Shown here: piece by piece, positions 14,745 to 22,107 of the stretch
How the letters are laid out: every line of letters starts with the position of its first letter
How positions within the stretch are numbered: position 1 is the first letter of the stretch
From: Acidobacteriota bacterium
GTDB taxonomy: Bacteria > Acidobacteriota > Vicinamibacteria > Vicinamibacterales > UBA2999
Length of the DNA stretch: 64,000 nt
Reading direction: 5' to 3'
NCBI GenBank assembly: GCA_963169195.1
Contig: CAUJDN010000123.1
Location: forward strand, 1,021 to 65,020
The notes under the pieces: model-generated
The model's input: only the letters and a program-made list of their open reading frames with translations
Told to the model about the DNA's origin: nothing
The model's database searches: none
Program-made: the position numbers and the translations under genes

Positions 14745-17700
14745 CTAGAAGATGTGCCCGATCCCGAAGTACCACCGGCCGCTGCCGAGAGCGTTCGCGC
14801 GGCGGCTGGAGGTGCTGAGGGTCGATCCGGGAATGCCGAAGTCCAGTCGAAGCAGGCCCACGGGCGAGTCGATTCGCAAGCCGGCGCCGTAGCCAATCTT
14901 CAGGTCGCTGTCCGAGCCTGGCGCCCCCGGGAAGACGACCTTGCCCGCGTCGAGGAACCCCACGCCGCGCACCCATCGGTAGATCGGGAACCGCACCTCC
15001 TGGTTCAACACCAGCAGGCGGGTCCCCCCCACGGGCAGCCGGAGGAAGATGTCCTCCGATCCCAGCCCGTCTTCCTTGTACCCCCGGACGCTGTTCCCGC
15101 CGCCAGCGTAGAAGCGGTCCGACAGCGGCGGGTCGTCGTTGCCGAAGGCGCGCCCCGCCACGACGCGCGACGCCAGGACGATTCTCCCGAGCGGCACGAA
15201 CACGTACTGCTGGGCCAGGACCCGGCCGAAGCTGACGTCCGCCCCGAGGGCAGACGCGCTGTGCTCGTACGAAACGGACGAGAAGGTCCCCCGCTGCGAG
15301 TTGACCGGGTCGTCGCGGCGGTCGAACAGCGCGGCCGAGGTCAACTTGCCGAGGTTCAGGACCTGGTTGAACGGCTCGAAGTCCTGCGGGTCGGGGTTCG
15401 CCTCGTACGTGTGGTTTCGCGTGAACCGGTACCCGTAGGTCACCTCGAGGCCGCGCCTGCGCCGCCACCGCTGCTCGACGCTGACGCCCACATCGTCGGT
15501 GACGAAGAGCGGAGCGGAGGGATACTGGACGTCCTCGCGGCTGAGGTAGCCGGACACGGTCGACCGCACCGGCAGGCCGAAGAAGCTGGCGTTCGACAGG
15601 AAGACGTTTCCGCGCTGGAAGTCCTTCTCGACGAGCCCGGCCACCCCGGCCGTCACCGCGCGGCCGAACAGGTTCTGGTTCCGCAGCTCGGCAATCGCAC
15701 CGATCTTCGTGGAGAGGCGGCCTTCCTCCTCGCCCTCGAGCGGGTCGTTGCGCTCGCGGTCGCCCTGCACGCCGTAGCGGAGCCGCCAGTGCGGGTACTC
15801 CTCGACCGTCACCACCGCGCGCACGTCCTGCTCGCCACCCTCCGGCTCGCCCAGTGGGACGGCCTGAATGTCCACCGCGCGGAACACGTTCGTGTCGAAC
15901 AGCCGCTTGCGGGCCATCGACCACTCCTCGAGATTCACCGGCTCGCCCAGGCGCAGGCTGAGGGCGCGGTCCACGATGCCTTCGCGCGTGCGCGTGGCGC
16001 CGGTGGTGACCACCTCGCGGAGCACCTGCCGCGGGCCTTCGACCACGGTGAAGGCGAGCGAGACGCTCGCCTCGTCCGGGGCAGGCGACGCCGCCGCGGT
16101 CACCTGCACGGTGTTGAAGCCGTGCTGGCGGTAGTGGCGCGCCACCCGGCCGCGCGCCGCGTCGAGCCCGGGCGCGGTATACGGCTCGCCGGGCACGATG
16201 TCGATCGCGCGTTCGACGGGCGGCCGCTCGTCATCAGAAACGCCTTCGACGCGCACTTCGCCCACAGCGGCCCGCGGCCCCTCCGCGATCGCGAAGGTGA
16301 GCTCATCGGGCCGGCGTTCCGGCATCGCGGCCACCTCGACACGGGCCTGCAGGAACCCCTCTTCCCGGTAGAAGTCCGACAGGGCACCGGCCGCCGCGTC
16401 GGGATCGATCCAGGCGTCCAGCTCCAGGCCCGCCCGCACGATGACGGCCTCCAACTCGCGGGACGACACCTCGCTGTTGCCACGGAACCCGAAGCCGCGG
16501 CGCCCGGCGCGCGCGCCCTGGTTCACGGCGAGATGCAGTGTCTTGGTATCGCCGACCAGCTCCACCGATCCGCGAACGTGTCCGTCGACGTAGCCCGACG
16601 CGAGCAGGTAGCGGCGCAGCCGGTTCTCGGCATCCTGCACGAGGAAGCGGTCGAAGACAGCGCGGGTCCAGGCTTCGGTGATGGCCTCGATCTCGTCCTG
16701 CGGGATCGGCGCTCCCTCGACGATGATCCGCGTGGCCGGCCCCCGGCTCACGGCGTACACCACGGCAATCGAGCCGTCCGGCAAATCGACTCGCCGCCCG
16801 CGCACCCGGGCCTCGAAGTACCCGCCGTCCACGTAGGCGGCCGTCAGCCGATCGAGGTCCCGCTGCCAGTCGTAGAAGCTGAACGCCTCGCCCGCGCGAA
16901 TCCGGACCAGGTCGCGGAGGCTGGCTTCGGTCAGCGGCGCGAGCTCGCCCTCGAACTGGACGCGGGCCACCCGCACCTCGGTCCGAACGACCGCCACACC
17001 CGAGCCGCCAAAGGTCACCTGGTGCCGCAGGCCGAGGCCGAAGCTCGAGTTGTCGCGGGAGACGGCCCGCACCTCGAAGCTGCCAATGGGGAAGTAGCTG
17101 ACCACGAAGGTGGCCCGGCCATTCTCGCGCAGGTTCTGCGACACGGTGAACTCGACGTTGTCGCGGATCCGCTTCGACAGCGTGAGGCGGGTCACCGGGT
17201 CCTCGAGATCCTGCTGGAGCTGCCCGGGATCCTCGCGAAATTCGTCCGGCGTCCCGCCAATGTCGAGACGCAGCGCGTCGAGGCCGAGGCGCTGCCCGGT
17301 GACGCCGAGCAGTTCACCGGACAGCAGCGTGAACGCATTGCCGGTCGTGACGCCGCCGCCGAAGAGCGCGGTGGCGATCTCCTCGCGGCTCCCTCCCTCG
17401 CTGGACGAGAGCTCGACGGACATCTGCTGCGGCGTGCCCTGAACCGTGAGCGTCACCTCGCCCTGGCCGCTGACGCGCGTCTGGGCCTGAACGTCGAGGT
17501 CCGGCTCGATGCGATCGAGGTTGGTGAAGGAGATGTTTCCGCGGTTGATCGTGAACGTGCGCCCCGCCGCGTACACCGTGCCGCCCTCGCGCAGCGTCGC
17601 CCGGCCCGTCAGCGCCGGCTGGCCCACCGTGCCGACGAGGCGCACCTGCGCGCCGCCCTCGAAGCGGCCGTAGTTGTTGTCCACGCGCATGTCCTCGACG

Positions 17701-20700
17701 GTCGTCACGGCGACGTTCAGCCGGATGTCGTCGAGGGCGGATCTCACGGCCGCCGGACGCGTCGTGGTGGCCGTGGCCAGCGCGGCCAGGCTGATGGGCT
17801 CGGTGTACGAGCTCCGCCGCACGCGGACGTCGCCGACGACCTGCGGACCCGCGTCCTCGATGCTGTAGGTCACCAGCGCGTCGATCTCGCTGCGCAGCCC
17901 GCGCGGATATTCCGCCGCCATGCCCGCGACCTGCACGGCAATCTCGGCGTCGGCAATCTCGGTCCCCTTCAACACCACGCCGCCATCGGCGACGAGCGTG
18001 CCGCCGTTGACGGCGCCCGTGAGGCCCCGCAGCTCGATGCGATCGCCCGCCAGGGCAACGGGTCCCGAGAGCCCGGACACCACCAGCCGGGGCGACGAGA
18101 GCGCCAGCTCGGCGTTGTTCAACTGCATCCGGCCTGCCAGCGTCGGATTCGCGGCGGTCCCCTGCACGCGAACGTCCACGTCGGCCGTGCCGTCGATGGC
18201 CACCGTCGGCACGAAGGCCGACAGGACACGCAGCACCGCCACACCCGTCAGGCTCAGGTCGACCGCAGCCTCGTCTTTCGTCAGGTCGACGGCGCCGCCC
18301 AGCGTCAGCCGGCTCCCCGCCGCCTGCCACACCACATCGTCCATGTGGACGATGCCGTCCTTGACGGAGATGGTGGAGGGGCGCGCCTGCGTGACCTCGA
18401 TGCCGGCCGTGTCGAATGCTGCGGTATCCACGACGAAGGTCCCGGCGGCGCGCATCGCATCGAGTTCGGGGATGGTTGCGCGGCCCTTGGCCGCGAAGCG
18501 GCCACTCGCCTGCTCGGCTGCCACCTGGGCGCTCAACGCGTGGAGCGTGAGGGCCTCGCCCGTGAGGTTGGCGTTCACGGCCAGGTCCGAGAGCACGACG
18601 TCTGGCGTCAGCTCGACGCGACCGCCCGTCAAGTCCACGCTGGCGATGAGGTCCCCCTGGCGACCGGTCGCGAAGAGGTCCAGCGCCAGGGGCCCGCTGG
18701 CGACGATGTCGGTCTCGAAGCCGAACGCCCTGGCCGCGGTCATCGCCTCGGACAGCTCGCCGCGGAACGAGGCGTTGAAGACGGTGTTGTCGCGGCCGGT
18801 GCGCTCACCCGACGCCGAGAGCGTCCCGCGGCCGAGGCGCGCCGTGAAGTCCCGGACCACGAGATCCCCAGGCTGCCAGGTGGCGGCGGCGGGTGTGGTG
18901 AGCGTGAGGGGAACGCCGGCGACGTGCGCGTCGATGGACTGGATGTTGGCGGCCACGTGAGGCGGAGGCGTTTCGTCCCCGACCGCGCCGTGGACGGCGG
19001 CGGTGAGGCTCACCTGGCCGGTCAACGTGCCCGGCACCGCACCGATGAGCGGGGAGGCCGTCGCCAGGTCCACGCGGTTCAGCACGGCCACCGCGCGATA
19101 GTCGTAGGGCGCCGCGAGGGCGACGGTGCCGTGCGCGAACGCGCCGAGCGAAGGGACGTGCGCCGCGACGCGTCCGTGATCCCCGTTGAGCGCCACGTCC
19201 ACCGTGCCGGTCCCGATGAGATCGCCGGCGATGCCACCCGCGAGCATGAAGCGGAACTGCCCGCGCCCCTGGGGGTGATCCACGGTCCCGTCACCGGTGA
19301 AGCGGCCGTTCACGAAAGCGGTGGTCTCGGCCTCGCCGACGAGCGCGCGGCTCCAGACGAGGTCCGCGACCTCGAGGTCGAGCGTGAAGGCGCGATCGAA
19401 CCCGTAGCGTCCCGACGCGCGCACGGCGCCAGCGCCCTGGCGGATGGAGAGCGACGGCACGTCGACTCCCTCGTCCGTGATGCGCGCGCGGCCGTCGAGG
19501 TTCTCGAACCTTTCGCCGGCCACCTGCAGCAGCGGGCTCGTGATCGCGACGTCCACGAGCGGCGCGTCGAAGGTCCCCCCGATGGTCGCGTCCGCGGCGA
19601 GCGCTCCGGACGCACGCCACTCCTCGGGCACCGCATCCTGCAACGTGCGGGCGTCTGGGGCCCGCGCCTGCAGGGTGCCGGAGAGGGTTCGCCTCTCGAG
19701 GTCGAGGGTCACCTCTCCGGTGGCCTCGGTGCCGCCGCGCGCCAGGCGCAGCGGCGAGACCACCACGCGTGACGTATCGGCGTCGATGGTGGCGGTCAAC
19801 GCCGTTGGACCGATGCCTGGCAGCGCCAGGTCGGGTGCGCGCGTCTCGATGGTCGCGCGGGGCGTGGCCAGGGTGCCCGCCAGCGTCACATCCGCGTCGA
19901 TGGCGCCGGCCGTGGCGCGCACCGCCTCGGACAGCGCGATGCCGTGCGGCGCGAGGCCGTCGCCCGCCTCCGCGAGGCTGGAAATCGTGATCGTCGTCGG
20001 GCCCGCGATCGTCGAGTTCATCAAGGCGTCGGCATCGAGCCGTCCGTCGGCGGTGCCGCGCGCCGCGATGCCCGCCGTCGTGACGGCGTGCTGCAGCGTC
20101 CACCGCTCGCCCCGCAGGCCCATCTCGATCCGGCCATCGAGCGGGGTCACGCCGCGTGCGCGGATGGCGTCGAGTTCGGTCCTCACGTCGAGCCGGCGGT
20201 CCGGACCGCTCGCGAAGCGGGCCTGTCCGTCGAGCCGCGCGCCGATGGGGTACGCCGCCATGTCGGCCAGGCGCATGAACACCAGGGCGTCCACGCCTTT
20301 CCACGCGGCGTTGGCGGTCAGCGGACCTTCGCCGAACGGCATGTCGAAGGTTGCCTCCACCTCCCCACCGCTCGACGGCGACACGGTGAGGCGGTTGCCC
20401 GTCGCGCGCTCGGCGTCCACGATCACTTCAGCGCTCACCGTCAGATCGCGCTCGGCGCCCACGCTCAGCGCCTCGGCGTCCAGGCGCACGGCGGTCTCCG
20501 GCGCGCCGGCCGGACCGACAAGCGATCCCTTCACGCGCGCCGAGCCGGCCACCGCCATCGGCGGCGGTGCCCACAGGGCGGCGGCCGTGGTGTCCACCTG
20601 TCCCTCGAAGGCCAGTTCCAGCGCAGGCGCGTCGAGCACGCGCGTCACCCGCCCGGACACGCTGATCGTCCCAATAGCGGACAGTGGGGACAGTCCCCGT

Positions 20701-21386
20701 AAAGAGAGCGGCAGATCCTGCAGCGAGACCGTGCTGCCATCGAAGGCAAGCCGCGAGTCGATGGGATCGACACGCAGGGCGCGCTCGCCGAGTTCCACGT
20801 CCACGCCGCCGCGAACGGCCAACGGTCCCGTGATGCCGTCGAACACGCGAATCTCGCGACGCTCGAGGGCGGCGTCGATGCCGGTCGCGACGATGCGGAG
20901 CGGGCCGGACCGATCGTCGTAGAGGAACGCGAAGTCGACCAGGTGGAGCCCGCGAAGCGCCAGCCTGCGCGGGATGGCGGGCGGCGGCTCGTCCGCGCCG
21001 CCATCAGGGATGTTCGACACGCCGTTGGCGTCAGTCACCACCTCCACCCGTCCACCGTCCACCGCTACGTCCTCCAGCACGAGGGCGCCGGCGTAGGCGG
21101 CCAGCGGAACGTCGGCCCGCACCCGGACGGCGGTGAAGAACGGCTGCGCCTCGTGGCCCCTGGCGGCCAGCCGGACATTGGTGAGGGTGGCGCTGCCGGT
21201 GAGGAGGTTGTAGCGGAAGGTGTCGGCCGTCAGGACGAGGCCGTAGTCGCGGTCGAGCAGCCCGCCGACCCAGGCGAAGACGCGCGACCGGGCCGGGGGC
21301 ATGTGAAGAATGGCCAGCACGGCGATCACGAGCACGGCCGCCACCGCGGCCGAGATGGCGACCGCCCGGTGCATCCTCGTCCCCAC
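14745..21386 (-). CDS. 2213-aa fusion protein: TamB-like (AsmA-like N-terminal anchor plus DUF490-type C-terminal region) fused to POTRA repeats and an Omp85/BamA/TamA-type beta-barrel
   Basis: Single uninterrupted ORF. The N-terminus is a signal anchor (AVAISAAVAAVLVIAVLAIL) followed by long beta-rich repeats. The middle carries ..RLNVAVTTVEDMRVDNNYGRFEGGAQVRLVGTVGQPALTGRATLREGGTVYAAGRTFTINRGNISF.. (TamB C-terminal domain style). Then come POTRA-like units (VARVQFEGELAPLTEASLRDLVRIRAGEAF..., VGEVRVEGVSDDERPPVERAIDIVPGEPY...). The C-terminal barrel ends ..YGAGLRIDSPVGLLRLDFGIPG...RWYFGIGHIF with a terminal Phe. Confidence 0.8.
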   Translation of the reverse strand: MGTRMHRAVAISAAVAAVLVIAVLAILHMPPARSRVFAWVGGLLDRDYGLVLTADTFRYNLLTGSATLTNVRLAARGHEAQPFFTAVRVRADVPLAAYAGALVLEDVAVDGGRVEVVTDANGVSNIPDGGADEPPPAIPRRLALRGLHLVDFAFLYDDRSGPLRIVATGIDAALERREIRVFDGITGPLAVRGGVDVELGERALRVDPIDSRLAFDGSTVSLQDLPLSLRGLSPLSAIGTISVSGRVTRVLDAPALELAFEGQVDTTAAALWAPPPMAVAGSARVKGSLVGPAGAPETAVRLDAEALSVGAERDLTVSAEVIVDAERATGNRLTVSPSSGGEVEATFDMPFGEGPLTANAAWKGVDALVFMRLADMAAYPIGARLDGQARFASGPDRRLDVRTELDAIRARGVTPLDGRIEMGLRGERWTLQHAVTTAGIAARGTADGRLDADALMNSTIAGPTTITISSLAEAGDGLAPHGIALSEAVRATAGAIDADVTLAGTLATPRATIETRAPDLALPGIGPTALTATIDADTSRVVVSPLRLARGGTEATGEVTLDLERRTLSGTLQARAPDARTLQDAVPEEWRASGALAADATIGGTFDAPLVDVAITSPLLQVAGERFENLDGRARITDEGVDVPSLSIRQGAGAVRASGRYGFDRAFTLDLEVADLVWSRALVGEAETTAFVNGRFTGDGTVDHPQGRGQFRFMLAGGIAGDLIGTGTVDVALNGDHGRVAAHVPSLGAFAHGTVALAAPYDYRAVAVLNRVDLATASPLIGAVPGTLTGQVSLTAAVHGAVGDETPPPHVAANIQSIDAHVAGVPLTLTTPAAATWQPGDLVVRDFTARLGRGTLSASGERTGRDNTVFNASFRGELSEAMTAARAFGFETDIVASGPLALDLFATGRQGDLIASVDLTGGRVELTPDVVLSDLAVNANLTGEALTLHALSAQVAAEQASGRFAAKGRATIPELDAMRAAGTFVVDTAAFDTAGIEVTQARPSTISVKDGIVHMDDVVWQAAGSRLTLGGAVDLTKDEAAVDLSLTGVAVLRVLSAFVPTVAIDGTADVDVRVQGTAANPTLAGRMQLNNAELALSSPRLVVSGLSGPVALAGDRIELRGLTGAVNGGTLVADGGVVLKGTEIADAEIAVQVAGMAAEYPRGLRSEIDALVTYSIEDAGPQVVGDVRVRRSSYTEPISLAALATATTTRPAAVRSALDDIRLNVAVTTVEDMRVDNNYGRFEGGAQVRLVGTVGQPALTGRATLREGGTVYAAGRTFTINRGNISFTNLDRIEPDLDVQAQTRVSGQGEVTLTVQGTPQQMSVELSSSEGGSREEIATALFGGGVTTGNAFTLLSGELLGVTGQRLGLDALRLDIGGTPDEFREDPGQLQQDLEDPVTRLTLSKRIRDNVEFTVSQNLRENGRATFVVSYFPIGSFEVRAVSRDNSSFGLGLRHQVTFGGSGVAVVRTEVRVARVQFEGELAPLTEASLRDLVRIRAGEAFSFYDWQRDLDRLTAAYVDGGYFEARVRGRRVDLPDGSIAVVYAVSRGPATRIIVEGAPIPQDEIEAITEAWTRAVFDRFLVQDAENRLRRYLLASGYVDGHVRGSVELVGDTKTLHLAVNQGARAGRRGFGFRGNSEVSSRELEAVIVRAGLELDAWIDPDAAAGALSDFYREEGFLQARVEVAAMPERRPDELTFAIAEGPRAAVGEVRVEGVSDDERPPVERAIDIVPGEPYTAPGLDAARGRVARHYRQHGFNTVQVTAAASPAPDEASVSLAFTVVEGPRQVLREVVTTGATRTREGIVDRALSLRLGEPVNLEEWSMARKRLFDTNVFRAVDIQAVPLGEPEGGEQDVRAVVTVEEYPHWRLRYGVQGDRERNDPLEGEEEGRLSTKIGAIAELRNQNLFGRAVTAGVAGLVEKDFQRGNVFLSNASFFGLPVRSTVSGYLSREDVQYPSAPLFVTDDVGVSVEQRWRRRRGLEVTYGYRFTRNHTYEANPDPQDFEPFNQVLNLGKLTSAALFDRRDDPVNSQRGTFSSVSYEHSASALGADVSFGRVLAQQYVFVPLGRIVLASRVVAGRAFGNDDPPLSDRFYAGGGNSVRGYKEDGLGSEDIFLRLPVGGTRLLVLNQEVRFPIYRWVRGVGFLDAGKVVFPGAPGSDSDLKIGYGAGLRIDSPVGLLRLDFGIPGSTLSTSSRRANALGSGRWYFGIGHIF

Positions 21387-21441
21387 GTGTCGATCTTACA
21401 GGCAGACCTCGTGCTAGCATCCGCCGGTGGAGGATCTCTTC

Positions 21442-21990
21442 ATGCGTGTGAAGTCCCTGGTTGGCCTGGGGCTGGCCGCGGTGCTTGGCGTCATGCCCGG
21501 CTCGGCCGGGCGCGCCCAGGCCCCTGCGGTCGAGCTCGGGGTGGGAGACGCGGCGCCGGCCTTCTCGCTGCCGGGATCGGACGGCAAGACCCACAGTCTC
21601 GCCGATTCGAAGGGGAAGCGGGCCGTCGTCCTGGCCTGGTTTCCGAAGGCGTTCACCGGTGGTTGAACGGCCGAGTGCAAGTCGCTCCGTGAGAGCGGCG
21701 ATCTCATCCGGCAGTACAACGTCGACTACTACATGGTCAGCGTCGACACGCTCGAGGACAACACGAAGTTCTCGCAGATGCACGAGGCCGATTACCCGAT
21801 CCTGAGCGACGTGTCGAAGGCCGTGGCCACCGCGTACGGTGTGCTCGGACCGGCCGGCGTCGCGCGGCGCTGGACGTTCTACATCGACCCCGACGGCAGG
21901 ATCCTCCACATCGAGAAGACCGTGTCCCCCTCCACGGCGGGGCCGGACATGGTGAAGAAGCTGGGCGAGCTGAACATCGCCAAGCGGTAG
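21442..21990 (+). CDS. exported peroxiredoxin (AhpC/TSA-BCP type) with in-frame UGA at 21664-21666 read as selenocysteine
   Basis: ORFs 21427..21666 and 21733..21990 share a frame and are separated only by one TGA. Read-through gives ..GKRAVVLAWFPKAFTGG-U-TAECKSLRESGDLIRQYNVDYYMVSVDTLEDNTKFSQMHEADYPILSDVSKAVATAYGV.. The UGA sits at the peroxidatic Cys position. The signal peptide is MRVKSLVGLGLAAVLGVMPGSAGRAQA, and a GGTGGAGG Shine-Dalgarno precedes ATG 21442. Confidence 0.7.
21681..21699 (+). promoter_or_regulatory. candidate bacterial SECIS hairpin
   Basis: GUCGCUC-CGUGA-GAGCGGC: a 7-bp stem (one G-U pair) with a 5-nt G/U-containing loop, starting 15 nt after the UGA. Confidence 0.4.
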
Positions 21991-21994
21991 CAGG

Positions 21995-22107
21995 GAGACC
22001 ACGAAGGCACGAGGGACACGACGTCGAACGCGAAGAGAGCCGCGTCAAGCCTGAATGCTTCGTGCGTCTTTCGTGCTCTTCGTGTCTTCGTGGTTTCGTT
22101 TCTTCGC
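21995..22107. repeat. inverted short-repeat cluster: CACGA(A/G)G units (left) facing YTTCGTG units (right)
   Basis: Left arm: gagaCCACGAAGgCACGAGggaCACGACg. Right arm: gCTTCGTGcgtctTTCGTGctCTTCGTGtCTTCGTGGtttcg. Together they can form a long imperfect hairpin between the peroxiredoxin and the amidohydrolase gene. Confidence 0.65.

What the first reader, a model, noticed from the sequence alone, without database searches (positions are those of the whole stretch)
21442..21990. Probable exported selenocysteine-containing peroxiredoxin with a SECIS-like hairpin
Two same-frame ORFs are separated by a single TGA (21664-21666). Read-through gives one 182-aa AhpC/TSA-BCP-type peroxiredoxin. The TGA falls exactly where the family has its peroxidatic Cys (WFPKAFTGG-U-TAEC; the usual motif is F-T-x-G-C-T-x-E). 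A Cys four residues later is retained. A 7-bp hairpin with a G/U-containing pentaloop (21681-21699) starts 15 nt after the UGA, which fits the placement of a bacterial SECIS. Sec-containing Prx-like proteins are a known bacterial selenoprotein class, so the kind is not new. Automated annotation would nevertheless split or pseudogenise it. The clear Sec-type signal peptide (AGRAQA) implies a periplasmic or secreted selenoprotein, which is less usual.
Basis: partly seen in the sequence, partly recalled or inferred. Interest (0 to 1): 0.6.

Follow-up and report, generated by a model that had tools for sequence, protein, structure and literature searches.

The report
Exported selenocysteine peroxiredoxin gene with SECIS
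The two short reading frames are one intact gene for an exported peroxide-destroying enzyme whose catalytic residue is selenocysteine, read from an in-frame UGA; this is a known kind of selenoprotein, common in soil Acidobacteria, that gene callers routinely cut in two.

Summary
Window 21442-21990 (+) is one 182-codon frame with a single TGA (21664-21666) at the peroxidatic position of an AhpC/TSA peroxiredoxin (PxxxTxxU plus the conserved Arg).

The genome has selA, selB, tRNA-Sec (anticodon TCA) and a selD that itself carries a catalytic TGA. TGA is an ordinary stop in neighbouring genes.

The same TGA, at the same codon and with an intact downstream frame, occurs in 86 of 118 family genes found in the fetched related loci (Vicinamibacterales and other Acidobacteriota). 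An even sample of 301 genomes of the phylum gave 40 with a single-TGA copy.

The 7-bp hairpin (21681-21699, loop CGUGA) meets all four published bacterial SECIS constraints. It is 98.8% paired in 46 distinct sequences, and 4 of 7 pairs show compensatory changes. Synonymous variation is suppressed there only in Sec forms, and Cys paralogues lack the hairpin.

A Sec-type signal peptide (cleavage after AQA27) is a family-wide feature.

The kind is known (the Prx "TxxU" selenoprotein family). This is a lineage-wide, systematically mis-annotated member: public sets hold about 2,900 clusters of short fragments, and all 120 listed are 71-86 aa. This scan has already reported the same gene family on other genomes.

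Selenium incorporation, export and activity remain untested.

The parts
21429..21433 (+). Shine-Dalgarno GGAGG, 8 nt upstream of the ATG
   Evidence: Read from the sequence. Supports ATG 21442 over GTG 21427 as the start.
21442..21990 (+). Complete selenoprotein coding sequence (182 codons plus TAG), one gene read through TGA as Sec
   Evidence: The Pfam AhpC-TSA domain (residues 34-156) spans the TGA. Orthologues carry the same single TGA.
21442..21522 (+). Sec-type signal peptide, residues 1-27 (MRVK, hydrophobic core, AQA, cleavage before P28)
   Evidence: N-terminal extensions with basic n-region, hydrophobic core and small-x-small end occur across more than 100 Sec and Cys homologues, while their sequence varies. 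AlphaFold2 pLDDT is below 50 for exactly residues 1-27. There is no RR motif and no lipobox Cys. No dedicated predictor was run.
21643..21666 (+). Active-site motif P68-K-A-F-T72-G-G-U75 (PxxxTxxU)
   Evidence: P68, T72 and G74 are invariant in alignment A1. The motif matches the Prx selenoprotein motif described in PMC13188914.
21664..21666 (+). UGA selenocysteine codon (residue 75, peroxidatic position)
   Evidence: It aligns with Cys in 32 Cys homologues and with TGA in 86 related family genes at the same codon. It sits at the N-terminus of helix 73-84 of the model, as CP does in peroxiredoxins.
21676..21678 (+). Cys79 codon, candidate resolving cysteine at CP+4 (U-T-A-E-C)
   Evidence: Invariant in all Sec and Cys family members examined. 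It aligns one residue before the canonical BCP resolving Cys of Sulfolobus Bcp1. Its role is inferred.
21681..21699 (+). Bacterial SECIS core: 7-bp stem (21681-21687 with 21693-21699) and apical loop CGUGA (21688-21692)
   Evidence: Energy is -9.6 kcal/mol. RNAalifold predicts exactly this helix and nothing else on 46 distinct sequences. Cells are 98.8% paired, 4 of 7 pairs have compensatory changes, and 0 of 500 shuffles reach this. Synonymous variation is 0.00-0.19 at codons 80-86 in Sec forms against 0.18-0.45 in Cys forms.
21868..21870 (+). Arg143 codon, the conserved peroxiredoxin active-site arginine (RWTFYID)
   Evidence: Invariant R143-W-T-F-Y-I in A1. It lies downstream of the TGA, so the downstream part is under selection for catalysis.

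Best explanation
This is one functional gene of a Vicinamibacterales (Acidobacteriota) bacterium.

Decoding. The ribosome reaches UGA75 while the 7-bp hairpin with loop CGUGA, 14 nt further on, is bound by SelB·GTP·Sec-tRNA(Sec). Selenocysteine is inserted instead of termination, giving a 182-aa precursor.

Export. An N-terminal Sec-type signal peptide sends the precursor across the inner membrane and is cut after AQA27. This leaves a periplasmic or envelope enzyme of about 155 aa with a BCP/PrxQ-AhpE-like peroxiredoxin fold.

Catalysis. Sec75 is activated by Pro68, Thr72 and Arg143. It attacks H2O2 or an organic hydroperoxide and becomes a selenenic acid. This is probably resolved by the invariant Cys79 one helical turn away, forming a selenenylsulfide. 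The enzyme is then re-reduced by an envelope thioredoxin-like donor fed by the genome's three-domain DsbD.

Shown here by computation: the gene is intact and conserved with its TGA, the SECIS is under structural selection, and the Sec machinery is present.

Inferred: actual Se insertion, export, peroxidase activity, the role of Cys79 and the reductant.

My odds: genuine Sec codon 0.95, exported 0.85, thiol- or selenol-dependent peroxidase 0.8, Cys79 as resolving residue 0.5, DsbD-dependent recycling 0.5. The confidence value given for this explanation (0.85) refers to the core claim: a genuine, exported Sec-containing peroxiredoxin decoded through this SECIS.
For: Gene and family. There is a single in-frame TGA at the peroxidatic position, and the Pfam AhpC-TSA match (E 1e-30) spans it. 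The AlphaFold2 model has mature-domain pLDDT above 90. Its best PDB matches are Sulfolobus Bcp1 (3drn, E 1e-15, TM 0.84), M. tuberculosis BcpB and AhpE (by sequence).

Machinery in the same genome.
- selA, 525 bits.
- selB, 323 bits including the C-terminal part.
- selD, 350 bits, with its own TGA at SCAG-U-ASKL.
- tRNA-Sec: Rfam 71.8 bits, ARAGORN anticodon TCA.

Genetic code. TGA ends 3 of 6 Pfam-supported neighbouring genes. It is absent inside them, including a 2213-aa ORF, so this is not a TGA-sense code.

Comparative evidence.
- TGA at the same codon in 17 of 19 other same-genus species and in most families of the order.
- 86 TGA against 32 TGC among 118 family genes found in the fetched loci.
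- 41 of 54 matches in an even sample of 301 genomes of the phylum carry one TGA.
- The frame after the TGA is 105-123 aa in 85 of 86 loci.
- A quick tree places 82 Sec genes and 3 Cys genes in one clade, apart from a clade of 29 Cys paralogues.

SECIS. All four constraints of the published model (PMC13188914) are met:
- loop of 5 nt and stem of 7 bp;
- G at loop position 2, followed by U or G, in all 61 distinct sequences;
- 21 nt between the UGA and the loop;
- -9.6 kcal/mol.
Covariation and synonymous-site suppression support it. At the same positions in Cys homologues the hairpin energy has a median of -0.8 kcal/mol.

Export. Signal-peptide features are family-wide.

Reductant. DsbD with N-terminal, transmembrane and thioredoxin-like domains is present. 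A periplasmic BCP/PrxQ peroxiredoxin reduced through ScsB or DsbD and TlpA is documented in Caulobacter (PMC3322552).
Against: - There is no direct evidence of selenium incorporation, expression or export.
- The hairpin alone is not statistically unusual in this GC-rich DNA (z -1.04).
- No NCBIfam model reaches its cut-off. The best is the thiol peroxidase model PRK09437 at 73.6 bits against a cut-off of 140, so subfamily placement is loose.
- Cys79 lies at CP+4, not at the canonical CP+5 of BCP enzymes, so the resolving step is uncertain.
- The signal peptide was judged by rules, not by a trained predictor.
- The tree is the quick version only.
- The TGA position was verified codon by codon only in fetched loci, not in all matches.
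Confidence: 0.85

Rival explanations
1. Pseudogene: a nonsense mutation inactivated an ordinary Cys peroxiredoxin, and the downstream part is decaying.
For: Under table 11 the frame is broken. Public gene calls keep only 71-86-aa fragments.
Against: The same TGA at the same codon occurs in 86 related family genes down to about 55% identity, with the downstream frame open in all of them. Arg143 and other catalytic residues downstream are invariant. The hairpin is preserved by compensatory changes.
Confidence: 0.02
2. Alternative genetic code or general stop-codon read-through: TGA is read as Trp or Gly, as the JGI calls with W suggest, not as selenocysteine.
For: JGI full-length proteins of this family carry W at the position. 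Those loci translate to them only with TGA=W.
Against: TGA terminates neighbouring Pfam-supported genes and never occurs inside them. selA and selB have no internal stops. The position is Cys in homologues, the classic Cys/Sec pair. A SECIS and the full Sec machinery are present. The W calls come from contigs of about 1 kb and are most simply a gene caller choosing a TGA-sense code (inference).
Confidence: 0.01
3. A genuine selenoprotein, but not a peroxidase. It would be an envelope thiol-disulfide or selenol oxidoreductase using the U-x3-C pair like a TlpA/ResA/DsbE-type redox motif, for example for protein or metal-centre reduction.
For: The thioredoxin-fold ResA and MauD models give weak hits. 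The second Cys sits at CP+4, unlike canonical BCP. The protein is exported into a compartment rich in Dsb-type chemistry, and the same genome has a Sec DsbA-like candidate.
Against: The full peroxiredoxin catalytic set Pro-Thr-Sec-Arg is invariant. The best sequence and fold matches are all peroxiredoxins. The ResA hit is much weaker (E 8e-10 against 1.6e-20).
Confidence: 0.1
4. A genuine Sec peroxiredoxin that stays in the cytoplasm or is membrane-anchored. The N-terminal hydrophobic stretch would be an uncleaved anchor, or the true start would lie further downstream.
For: No signal-peptide predictor and no localisation data are available. The only later ATG inside the presequence is M18.
Against: The SD-ATG spacing supports 21442. 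The n-h-c organisation with an AxA-like end is conserved across more than 100 homologues whose sequences otherwise vary. The hydrophobic core is only about 13 residues, short for a transmembrane anchor.
Confidence: 0.1

Closest known systems
Bacterial selenoprotein family 'Peroxiredoxin (Prx)', PF00578, TxxU / PxxxTxxU motif (Zhang et al. 2006, PMC1794560; 2026 review PMC13188914; prototype PrxU of Eubacterium acidaminophilum, Sohling et al. 2001 as cited there)
   Same: Sec replaces the peroxidatic Cys in PxxxTxxC. There is a Cys/Sec pair with many Cys homologues. The bSECIS lies immediately downstream in the coding region. The origin looks lineage-specific, consistent with the repeated Cys-to-Sec conversions reported for Prx.
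   Different: It is not PrxU: NF040737 scores 48.6 bits against a cut-off of 270. It carries a signal peptide. It has a second Cys at CP+4. It occurs in Acidobacteriota (Vicinamibacterales). The papers I searched do not mention Vicinamibacteria or a periplasmic Sec-Prx.
PprX, the cell-envelope BCP/PrxQ peroxiredoxin of Caulobacter crescentus (Cho et al. 2012, PMC3322552)
   Same: A BCP/PrxQ-like peroxiredoxin with an N-terminal signal sequence of about 20 aa. The resolving Cys is at a non-canonical position. It depends on an envelope reductive pathway (ScsB or DsbD, then TlpA or DsbD-gamma). This genome has a three-domain DsbD.
   Different: PprX uses Cys, not Sec. Orthology to PprX was not tested here. 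No partner gene is adjacent in the window.
BCP/PrxQ and AhpE peroxiredoxins with solved structures (Sulfolobus Bcp1 3drn; M. tuberculosis BcpB 5epf and AhpE 1xvw)
   Same: The same fold (TM 0.80-0.85 normalised to the target, 28-32% identity). CP lies at the start of helix alpha-2. The Pro/Thr/Arg catalytic residues are present.
   Different: Those enzymes are cytoplasmic Cys enzymes. Bcp1 has its resolving Cys at CP+5 and AhpE is a 1-Cys enzyme. Here the pair is U...C at CP+4.
E. coli fdhF-type bacterial SECIS / bSECISearch consensus
   Same: A stem-loop directly downstream of the UGA, with G followed by U in a small apical loop and spacing within 16-37 nt.
   Different: The loop is CGUGA, not GGUC, and no bulged U is seen. 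Other Sec candidates in this genome mostly have GGUC or GUC loops.

Membership tests
Bacterial Sec-decoded (selenoprotein) gene | In-frame UGA aligned with a conserved catalytic Cys of homologues (Cys/Sec pair) | tested here: met
   86 TGA and 32 TGC at the same alignment column.
Bacterial Sec-decoded (selenoprotein) gene | bSECIS meeting the consensus (loop 3-9 nt, stem 4-16 bp, G in the first two loop positions, 16-37 nt from the UGA to the loop, MFE at or below -7.5 kcal/mol) | tested here: met
   Loop 5 nt (CGUGA), stem 7 bp, spacing 21 nt, -9.6 kcal/mol. 55 of 61 distinct Sec homologue sequences reach -7.5 or lower.
Bacterial Sec-decoded (selenoprotein) gene | SECIS structure conserved with covariation among orthologues | tested here: met
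   Cells 98.8% paired. 4 of 7 pairs have changes on both sides. 0 of 500 shuffles reach the observed values. Slid controls give 31-70% paired.
Bacterial Sec-decoded (selenoprotein) gene | selA, selB, selC (tRNA-Sec) and selD present in the genome | tested here: met
   All are over the curated cut-offs. The tRNA has anticodon TCA.
Bacterial Sec-decoded (selenoprotein) gene | Selenium actually incorporated at the UGA | not testable with these tools
   Needs 75Se labelling or mass spectrometry.
Peroxiredoxin (AhpC/TSA, PF00578) | Profile match over the curated threshold | tested here: met
   106.5 bits against a cut-off of 26.
Peroxiredoxin (AhpC/TSA, PF00578) | Catalytic Pro, Thr, Cys/Sec (PxxxTxxC) and the distal Arg | tested here: met
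   P68, T72, U75 and R143 are invariant.
Peroxiredoxin (AhpC/TSA, PF00578) | Thioredoxin-like Prx fold with CP at the N-terminus of helix alpha-2 | tested here: met
   Model pLDDT 85.6 overall and above 90 in the domain. Helix 73-84 starts at the active site. The top 50 PDB matches are all peroxiredoxins.
Peroxiredoxin (AhpC/TSA, PF00578) | Peroxidase activity | not testable with these tools
   Needs an enzyme assay.
BCP/PrxQ subfamily | Equivalog-level profile match (NCBIfam PRK09437 or PrxQ) | tested here: not met
   73.6 bits against 140, and 61.3 against 260. The nearest structures are BCP and AhpE types, so it works like a BCP/AhpE-type enzyme but is not an equivalog.
BCP/PrxQ subfamily | Resolving Cys five residues after CP (CP-x4-CR) | tested here: not met
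   The second Cys is at CP+4. It aligns one residue before the Bcp1 CR position.
PrxU (NF040737) | Profile match over the cut-off | tested here: not met
   48.6 bits against 270.
Cell-envelope peroxiredoxin (PprX-like) | Cleavable N-terminal signal sequence | tested here: inconclusive
   Rule-based features are conserved family-wide and the N-terminus is disordered in the model. No trained predictor or experiment.
Cell-envelope peroxiredoxin (PprX-like) | Reduction through a DsbD/ScsB-fed thioredoxin-like protein | not testable with these tools
   DsbD (alpha, beta and gamma domains) is present in the genome. The link to this enzyme is inferred.

The most novel reading that the evidence does not exclude
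These soil Acidobacteria (cultured Vicinamibacteria are aerobes, from my own knowledge) may keep the whole Sec machinery largely to run a selenium-based redox system in the cell envelope. It would consist of this exported Sec-peroxiredoxin together with the Sec DsbA-like lipoprotein and the exported Sec DUF411 candidate seen in the same genome. The enzyme would use a so far undescribed intrahelical selenenylsulfide (U-x3-C, resolving Cys at CP+4). That would make soil selenium availability a determinant of envelope oxidative-stress defence in one of the most abundant soil lineages.
Probability: 0.2. Interest if true: 0.55.

Novelty: new member of a known kind. Interest (0 to 1): 0.3.

Why it matters
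Annotation. A conserved, very abundant gene is stored in public protein sets as a roughly 74-aa stump or with a false Trp. About 2,900 clusters at 90% identity match the N-terminal fragment. Any census of antioxidant enzymes or selenium use in soil metagenomes therefore undercounts it. A dedicated profile with a Sec exception rule would fix thousands of records.

Biology. The gene indicates that Vicinamibacterales and other Acidobacteriota use selenium, and in an exported enzyme. This gives a clean natural Sec/Cys paralogue pair, in tandem in some genomes, for asking what selenocysteine buys a peroxiredoxin outside the cytoplasm.

It does not change what is known about how Sec decoding or peroxiredoxins work.

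Tried and rejected
- Rfam gathering-threshold scan of the whole window found no family. It gave no independent support for the hairpin.
- The single-sequence fold suggested an extended lower stem that includes the UGA. RNAalifold on 46 sequences keeps only the 7-bp apical helix, so I rejected the lower stem.
- The promoter and terminator consensus scan around the gene found nothing.
- The neighbourhood offers no redox partner. The neighbours are a divergent TamB-Omp85 gene, an amidohydrolase and a beta-eliminating lyase family (PLP) enzyme.
- The careful maximum-likelihood tree did not finish in 288 s, so only the quick tree is used.
- A crude synonymous versus nonsynonymous count up- and downstream of the TGA is saturated at these divergences. 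I do not use it as evidence.
- My whole-genome TGA plus GC3 plus hairpin scan is noisy: 153 hits at loose thresholds, and the strict version missed both the Prx and selD. Only hits with a Cys-motif context and a Pfam domain were kept as leads.
- PrxU, Prx-SUH and WAxxUGC memberships were considered and rejected on score.
Full report
**1. Observation**

The sequence at 21442-21990 (+) is a single frame. It starts at an ATG preceded by GGAGG (21429-21433) and ends at TAG. There is exactly one internal stop, TGA at 21664-21666. Read through, it gives 182 residues. Pfam AhpC-TSA matches residues 34-156 at E 1.1e-30, and Redoxin at 1.6e-20, so one domain spans the TGA. The local motif is WFPKAFTGG-U-TAEC. 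A 7-bp hairpin (GUCGCUC / CGUGA / GAGCGGC) occupies 21681-21699, with its first base 15 nt after the UGA. Taken alone, the 62-nt fold is not unusual for this 70.7% GC DNA (z -1.04, 36 of 200 shuffles as good). The hairpin therefore had to be tested by comparison.

**2. Sec machinery and genetic code**

The window lies on contig C123 of a 5.0-Mb, 135-contig assembly (97% complete). The assembly holds the following:
- selA at 525 bits (cut-off 268).
- selB at 295 bits, 323 with its C-terminal segment, in a 639-aa frame.
- selD at 350 bits with one internal TGA. That TGA falls at MVSCAG-U-ASKL, the SelD catalytic Sec/Cys site, and hairpins follow it.
- A tRNA that Rfam scores at 71.8 bits for tRNA-Sec and that ARAGORN calls tRNA-SeC with anticodon TCA.

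TGA is a normal terminator here. It ends three of six Pfam-supported neighbouring genes and never occurs inside them, including a 2213-codon ORF. A TGA-sense code is thus excluded.

**3. Homologues**

A protein search returned thousands of full-length relatives. Among the best 120, 106 have Cys at the position and 14, all from JGI, have Trp. The three Trp forms I looked up are encoded with TGA and translate to the database protein only with TGA=W. The 'W' is therefore a gene-calling artefact on contigs of about 1 kb (my inference for the cause), and these are further TGA carriers.

Whole-genome searches that read through stops gave these results:
- A single TGA in the match in 17 of 19 other species of the genus. 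The two without a match are 92% and 62% complete.
- A single TGA in other genera of the family and in most families of the order, down to about 55% identity.
- 52 of 301 genomes in an even sample of the phylum have a match at E <= 1e-35. 41 of the 54 matches carry one TGA.

Record titles of 80 further loci name Vicinamibacterales, Vicinamibacteria or Acidobacteriota MAGs almost throughout. A few are labelled Acidimicrobiia or Planctomycetota, which may be binning or labelling noise.

I located the active-site motif in every fetched locus and found 118 family genes. Of these, 86 have TGA and 32 have TGC at the same codon. After the TGA the frame stays open for 105-123 codons in 85 of 86 loci. 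Residues downstream, such as R143-W-T-F-Y-I, are invariant. This is incompatible with a pseudogene.

**4. The SECIS**

In Sec genes the stretch UGA ACG GCC GAR UGC AAG UCG CUC CGU GAG AGC GGC is nearly fixed at the nucleotide level. The sequence beyond it varies freely.

On 46 distinct 60-nt sequences, RNAalifold predicts exactly the 7-bp helix (columns 18-24 with 30-36) and nothing else. Counting pairs on that structure gives 98.8% standard pairs and 4 of 7 pairs with changes on both sides. These are G-C to C-G or A-U at the base, G-C to A-U, C-G to U-A, and C-G to G-C at the top. None of 500 shuffles reaches these values, and sliding the 3' arm by 1-3 columns drops pairing to 31-70%.

Synonymous differences between pairs with the same amino acid fall to 0.00-0.19 at codons 80-86 in Sec genes. 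Ser81 is 0.02, Leu82 0.05 and Ser85 0.03, all six-fold degenerate codons, while elsewhere in the gene Leu shows 0.42-0.67 and Ser 0.07-0.56. Cys genes show 0.18-0.45 at the same codons.

Cys paralogues encode LAENG instead of LRESG and cannot form the helix. The energy of the forced hairpin has a median of -0.8 kcal/mol in Cys genes against -9.6 in Sec genes. The three Cys genes nested in the Sec clade have also lost it.

The element meets all four constraints of the published bacterial SECIS model (PMC13188914, read):
- a 5-nt loop and a 7-bp stem;
- G at loop position 2, followed by U or G, in all 61 distinct sequences (loops CGUGA 45, CGUGC 11, CGGGC 4, CGUGG 1);
- 21 nt between the UGA and the loop;
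- -9.6 kcal/mol.

The extended lower stem seen in the single-sequence fold is not conserved, and I dropped it.

**5. The protein**

The AlphaFold2 model (16-sequence alignment) has pLDDT above 90 through the mature domain and below 50 for residues 1-27 only. Residue 75 lies at the N-terminus of helix 73-84.

The best structural matches are Sulfolobus Bcp1 (3drn), M. tuberculosis BcpB (5epf) and AhpE (1xvw, 4x1u). TM-scores are 0.80-0.85 on the target and identity is 28-32%. Sequence search of the PDB agrees.

Pro68, Thr72, Sec75 and Arg143 form the canonical peroxiredoxin catalytic set. Cys79 is invariant in Sec and Cys forms but sits at CP+4, one residue before the canonical BCP resolving Cys.

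No NCBIfam equivalog reaches its cut-off: thiol peroxidase PRK09437 73.6 of 140, PrxQ 61.3 of 260, PrxU 48.6 of 270, Prx-SUH 30.6 of 298. So it works like a BCP/AhpE-type peroxiredoxin but is not a member of those named equivalogs.

**6. Export**

Residues 1-27 (MRVK-SLVGLGLAAVLGV-MPGSAGRAQA) have the n-h-c layout of a Sec-type signal peptide. There is no twin-arginine and no lipobox Cys. More than 100 Sec and Cys homologues carry an equivalent extension that varies in sequence. It is typically 20-30 residues, with a best 10-residue hydropathy of 2-3 and endings such as AQA or AMA.

This is rule-based, not a trained prediction. I put export at 0.85.

A characterised analogue exists. Caulobacter PprX is a BCP/PrxQ peroxiredoxin with a 20-aa signal sequence and a non-canonical resolving Cys. 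It is kept reduced by ScsB or DsbD through TlpA or the DsbD gamma domain (PMC3322552). This genome encodes a three-domain DsbD (DsbD_N, DsbD_TM, thioredoxin-like), so a reductive route is available. The link to this enzyme is inferred.

**7. Evolution**

A quick ML tree, with the CP column removed, separates a clade of 29 Cys paralogues (CTIEC...LAENG) from a clade of 85 that holds all 82 Sec genes plus 3 Cys genes. The Sec/Cys label needs about 3 changes against 28 in shuffles.

The simplest reading is one old Sec lineage with a few Sec-to-Cys reversions. The tree is unrooted and quick, so the direction is not established.

Several genomes carry the Cys paralogue in tandem about 150 nt upstream of the Sec gene. 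The window does not.

**8. Annotation state**

Searching with only the 74-aa N-terminal piece found 2,872 clusters at E <= 1e-10 within the length range searched (about 41-130 aa). The top 120 are all 71-86 aa. They come from NCBI, ENA, JGI and Logan, and those with a name are called 'peroxiredoxin Q/BCP' or 'thioredoxin-dependent peroxiredoxin'. Full-length versions appear only as the W-mistranslated JGI calls.

**9. Comparison with the known, and novelty**

Peroxiredoxin with a TxxU / PxxxTxxU active site is a long-listed bacterial selenoprotein family with repeated Cys-to-Sec conversions (PMC1794560; PMC13188914). Acidobacteria were already counted among Sec users in 2006.

The papers I could search do not mention Vicinamibacteria, a signal-peptide-bearing Sec-Prx or the U-x3-C arrangement. 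These are details within a known kind.

Earlier agents of this scan reported the same gene family on other genomes, including Vicinamibacterales, and similar finds in Gemmatimonadota. My independent tests agree with them.

Verdict: real, well supported, ordinary in kind. It is a new, lineage-wide member of a known selenoprotein family, and its main practical value is correcting annotation.

**10. Context noticed**

A crude scan of the genome for in-frame TGA with coding-like GC3 on both sides and a bSECIS-like hairpin, followed by Pfam, suggests about ten selenoprotein genes:
- two FdhA-like genes, of which only C66 was confirmed by Pfam;
- SelD;
- a DsbA-like lipoprotein (YQ-U-PFC);
- an AhpF-N-terminal-like thioredoxin (PT-U-PHC);
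- an AhpD/CMD-like protein (C-RY-U);
- an exported DUF411 protein (SPT-U-GCC);
- a MerB-domain protein (YT-U-ATIC);
- a less certain exported beta-helix protein.

These rest on one genome only and were not followed up.

**Limits**

No SignalP or bSECISearch was run. Only the quick tree is available. The TGA position was verified codon by codon only in fetched loci.

Noticed in passing
window 14745-21386 (-): A 2213-aa ORF combines TamB (PF04357), POTRA repeats and an Omp85 barrel in one polypeptide. It is divergently oriented to the peroxiredoxin gene. An earlier agent of this scan has already followed it up (e1-3187760).
   Followed up: partly
window 21995-22107: Directly after the prx stop codon, CACGAAG words face CTTCGTG words and form a long imperfect inverted repeat. 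The consensus terminator scan finds nothing here, so this may be the functional transcript end of prx. It was noted earlier as e1-3187758.
   Followed up: no
G000:C93:59054-59977 (-), locus L010: The genome's selD is itself a selenoprotein gene. Its in-frame TGA lies at MVSCAG-U-ASKL, and two hairpins follow it, the second with a GUC loop.
   Followed up: partly
G000 contigs C66 (+, TGA offset 9077) and C121 (-, offset 13877 on the reverse strand): Two formate-dehydrogenase-alpha-like frames have TGA at NRT-U-HAPSVAGL and ARI-U-HGPTVASL, with GGUCU and GUC hairpin loops. The C66 frame matches the molybdopterin oxidoreductase family. The C121 frame was not sent to Pfam.
   Followed up: partly
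G000 contigs C59 (-, 24421), C93 (-, 30224), C30 (+, 95924), C14 (-, 106790): Candidate thiol-oxidoreductase selenoproteins seen in one genome only. They are a DsbA-like/Thioredoxin_4 protein with a lipoprotein-like N-terminus (YQ-U-PFC), a Thioredoxin_3 AhpF-N-terminal-like protein (PT-U-PHC), a CMD/AhpD-like protein (C-RY-U-LHHH), and a DUF411 protein with a signal peptide (SPT-U-GCC). At least two appear to be exported.
   Followed up: partly
G000 contigs C128 (-, 81667), C124 (-, 8253), C119 (+, 16215): Less certain Sec candidates. They are a MerB (alkylmercury lyase) domain protein with YT-U-ATIC, an exported right-handed beta-helix/NosD-like protein with GGGI-U-IQGHN, and a weak GrdB-like frame with PV-U-PFC whose hairpin loop is CGUGA like that of the Prx. 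None was checked in relatives.
   Followed up: no
loci L037, L038, L039, L042, L080, L083: In several relatives a Cys paralogue (CTIEC...LAENG clade, also with a signal peptide) sits in tandem about 150 nt upstream of the Sec gene. This is a natural Sec/Cys pair in one operon-like unit. The window's genome lacks the upstream copy.
   Followed up: partly
loci L050, L120, L083 (Cys copy): Three Cys genes nest inside the Sec clade and have lost the hairpin. They are probably Sec-to-Cys reversions.
   Followed up: partly
G000:C29:58851-60725 (+), locus L135 628-2502: A three-domain DsbD (DsbD_N, DsbD_TM and a thioredoxin-like gamma domain) was the only DsbD_TM match found in the assembly.
   Followed up: partly
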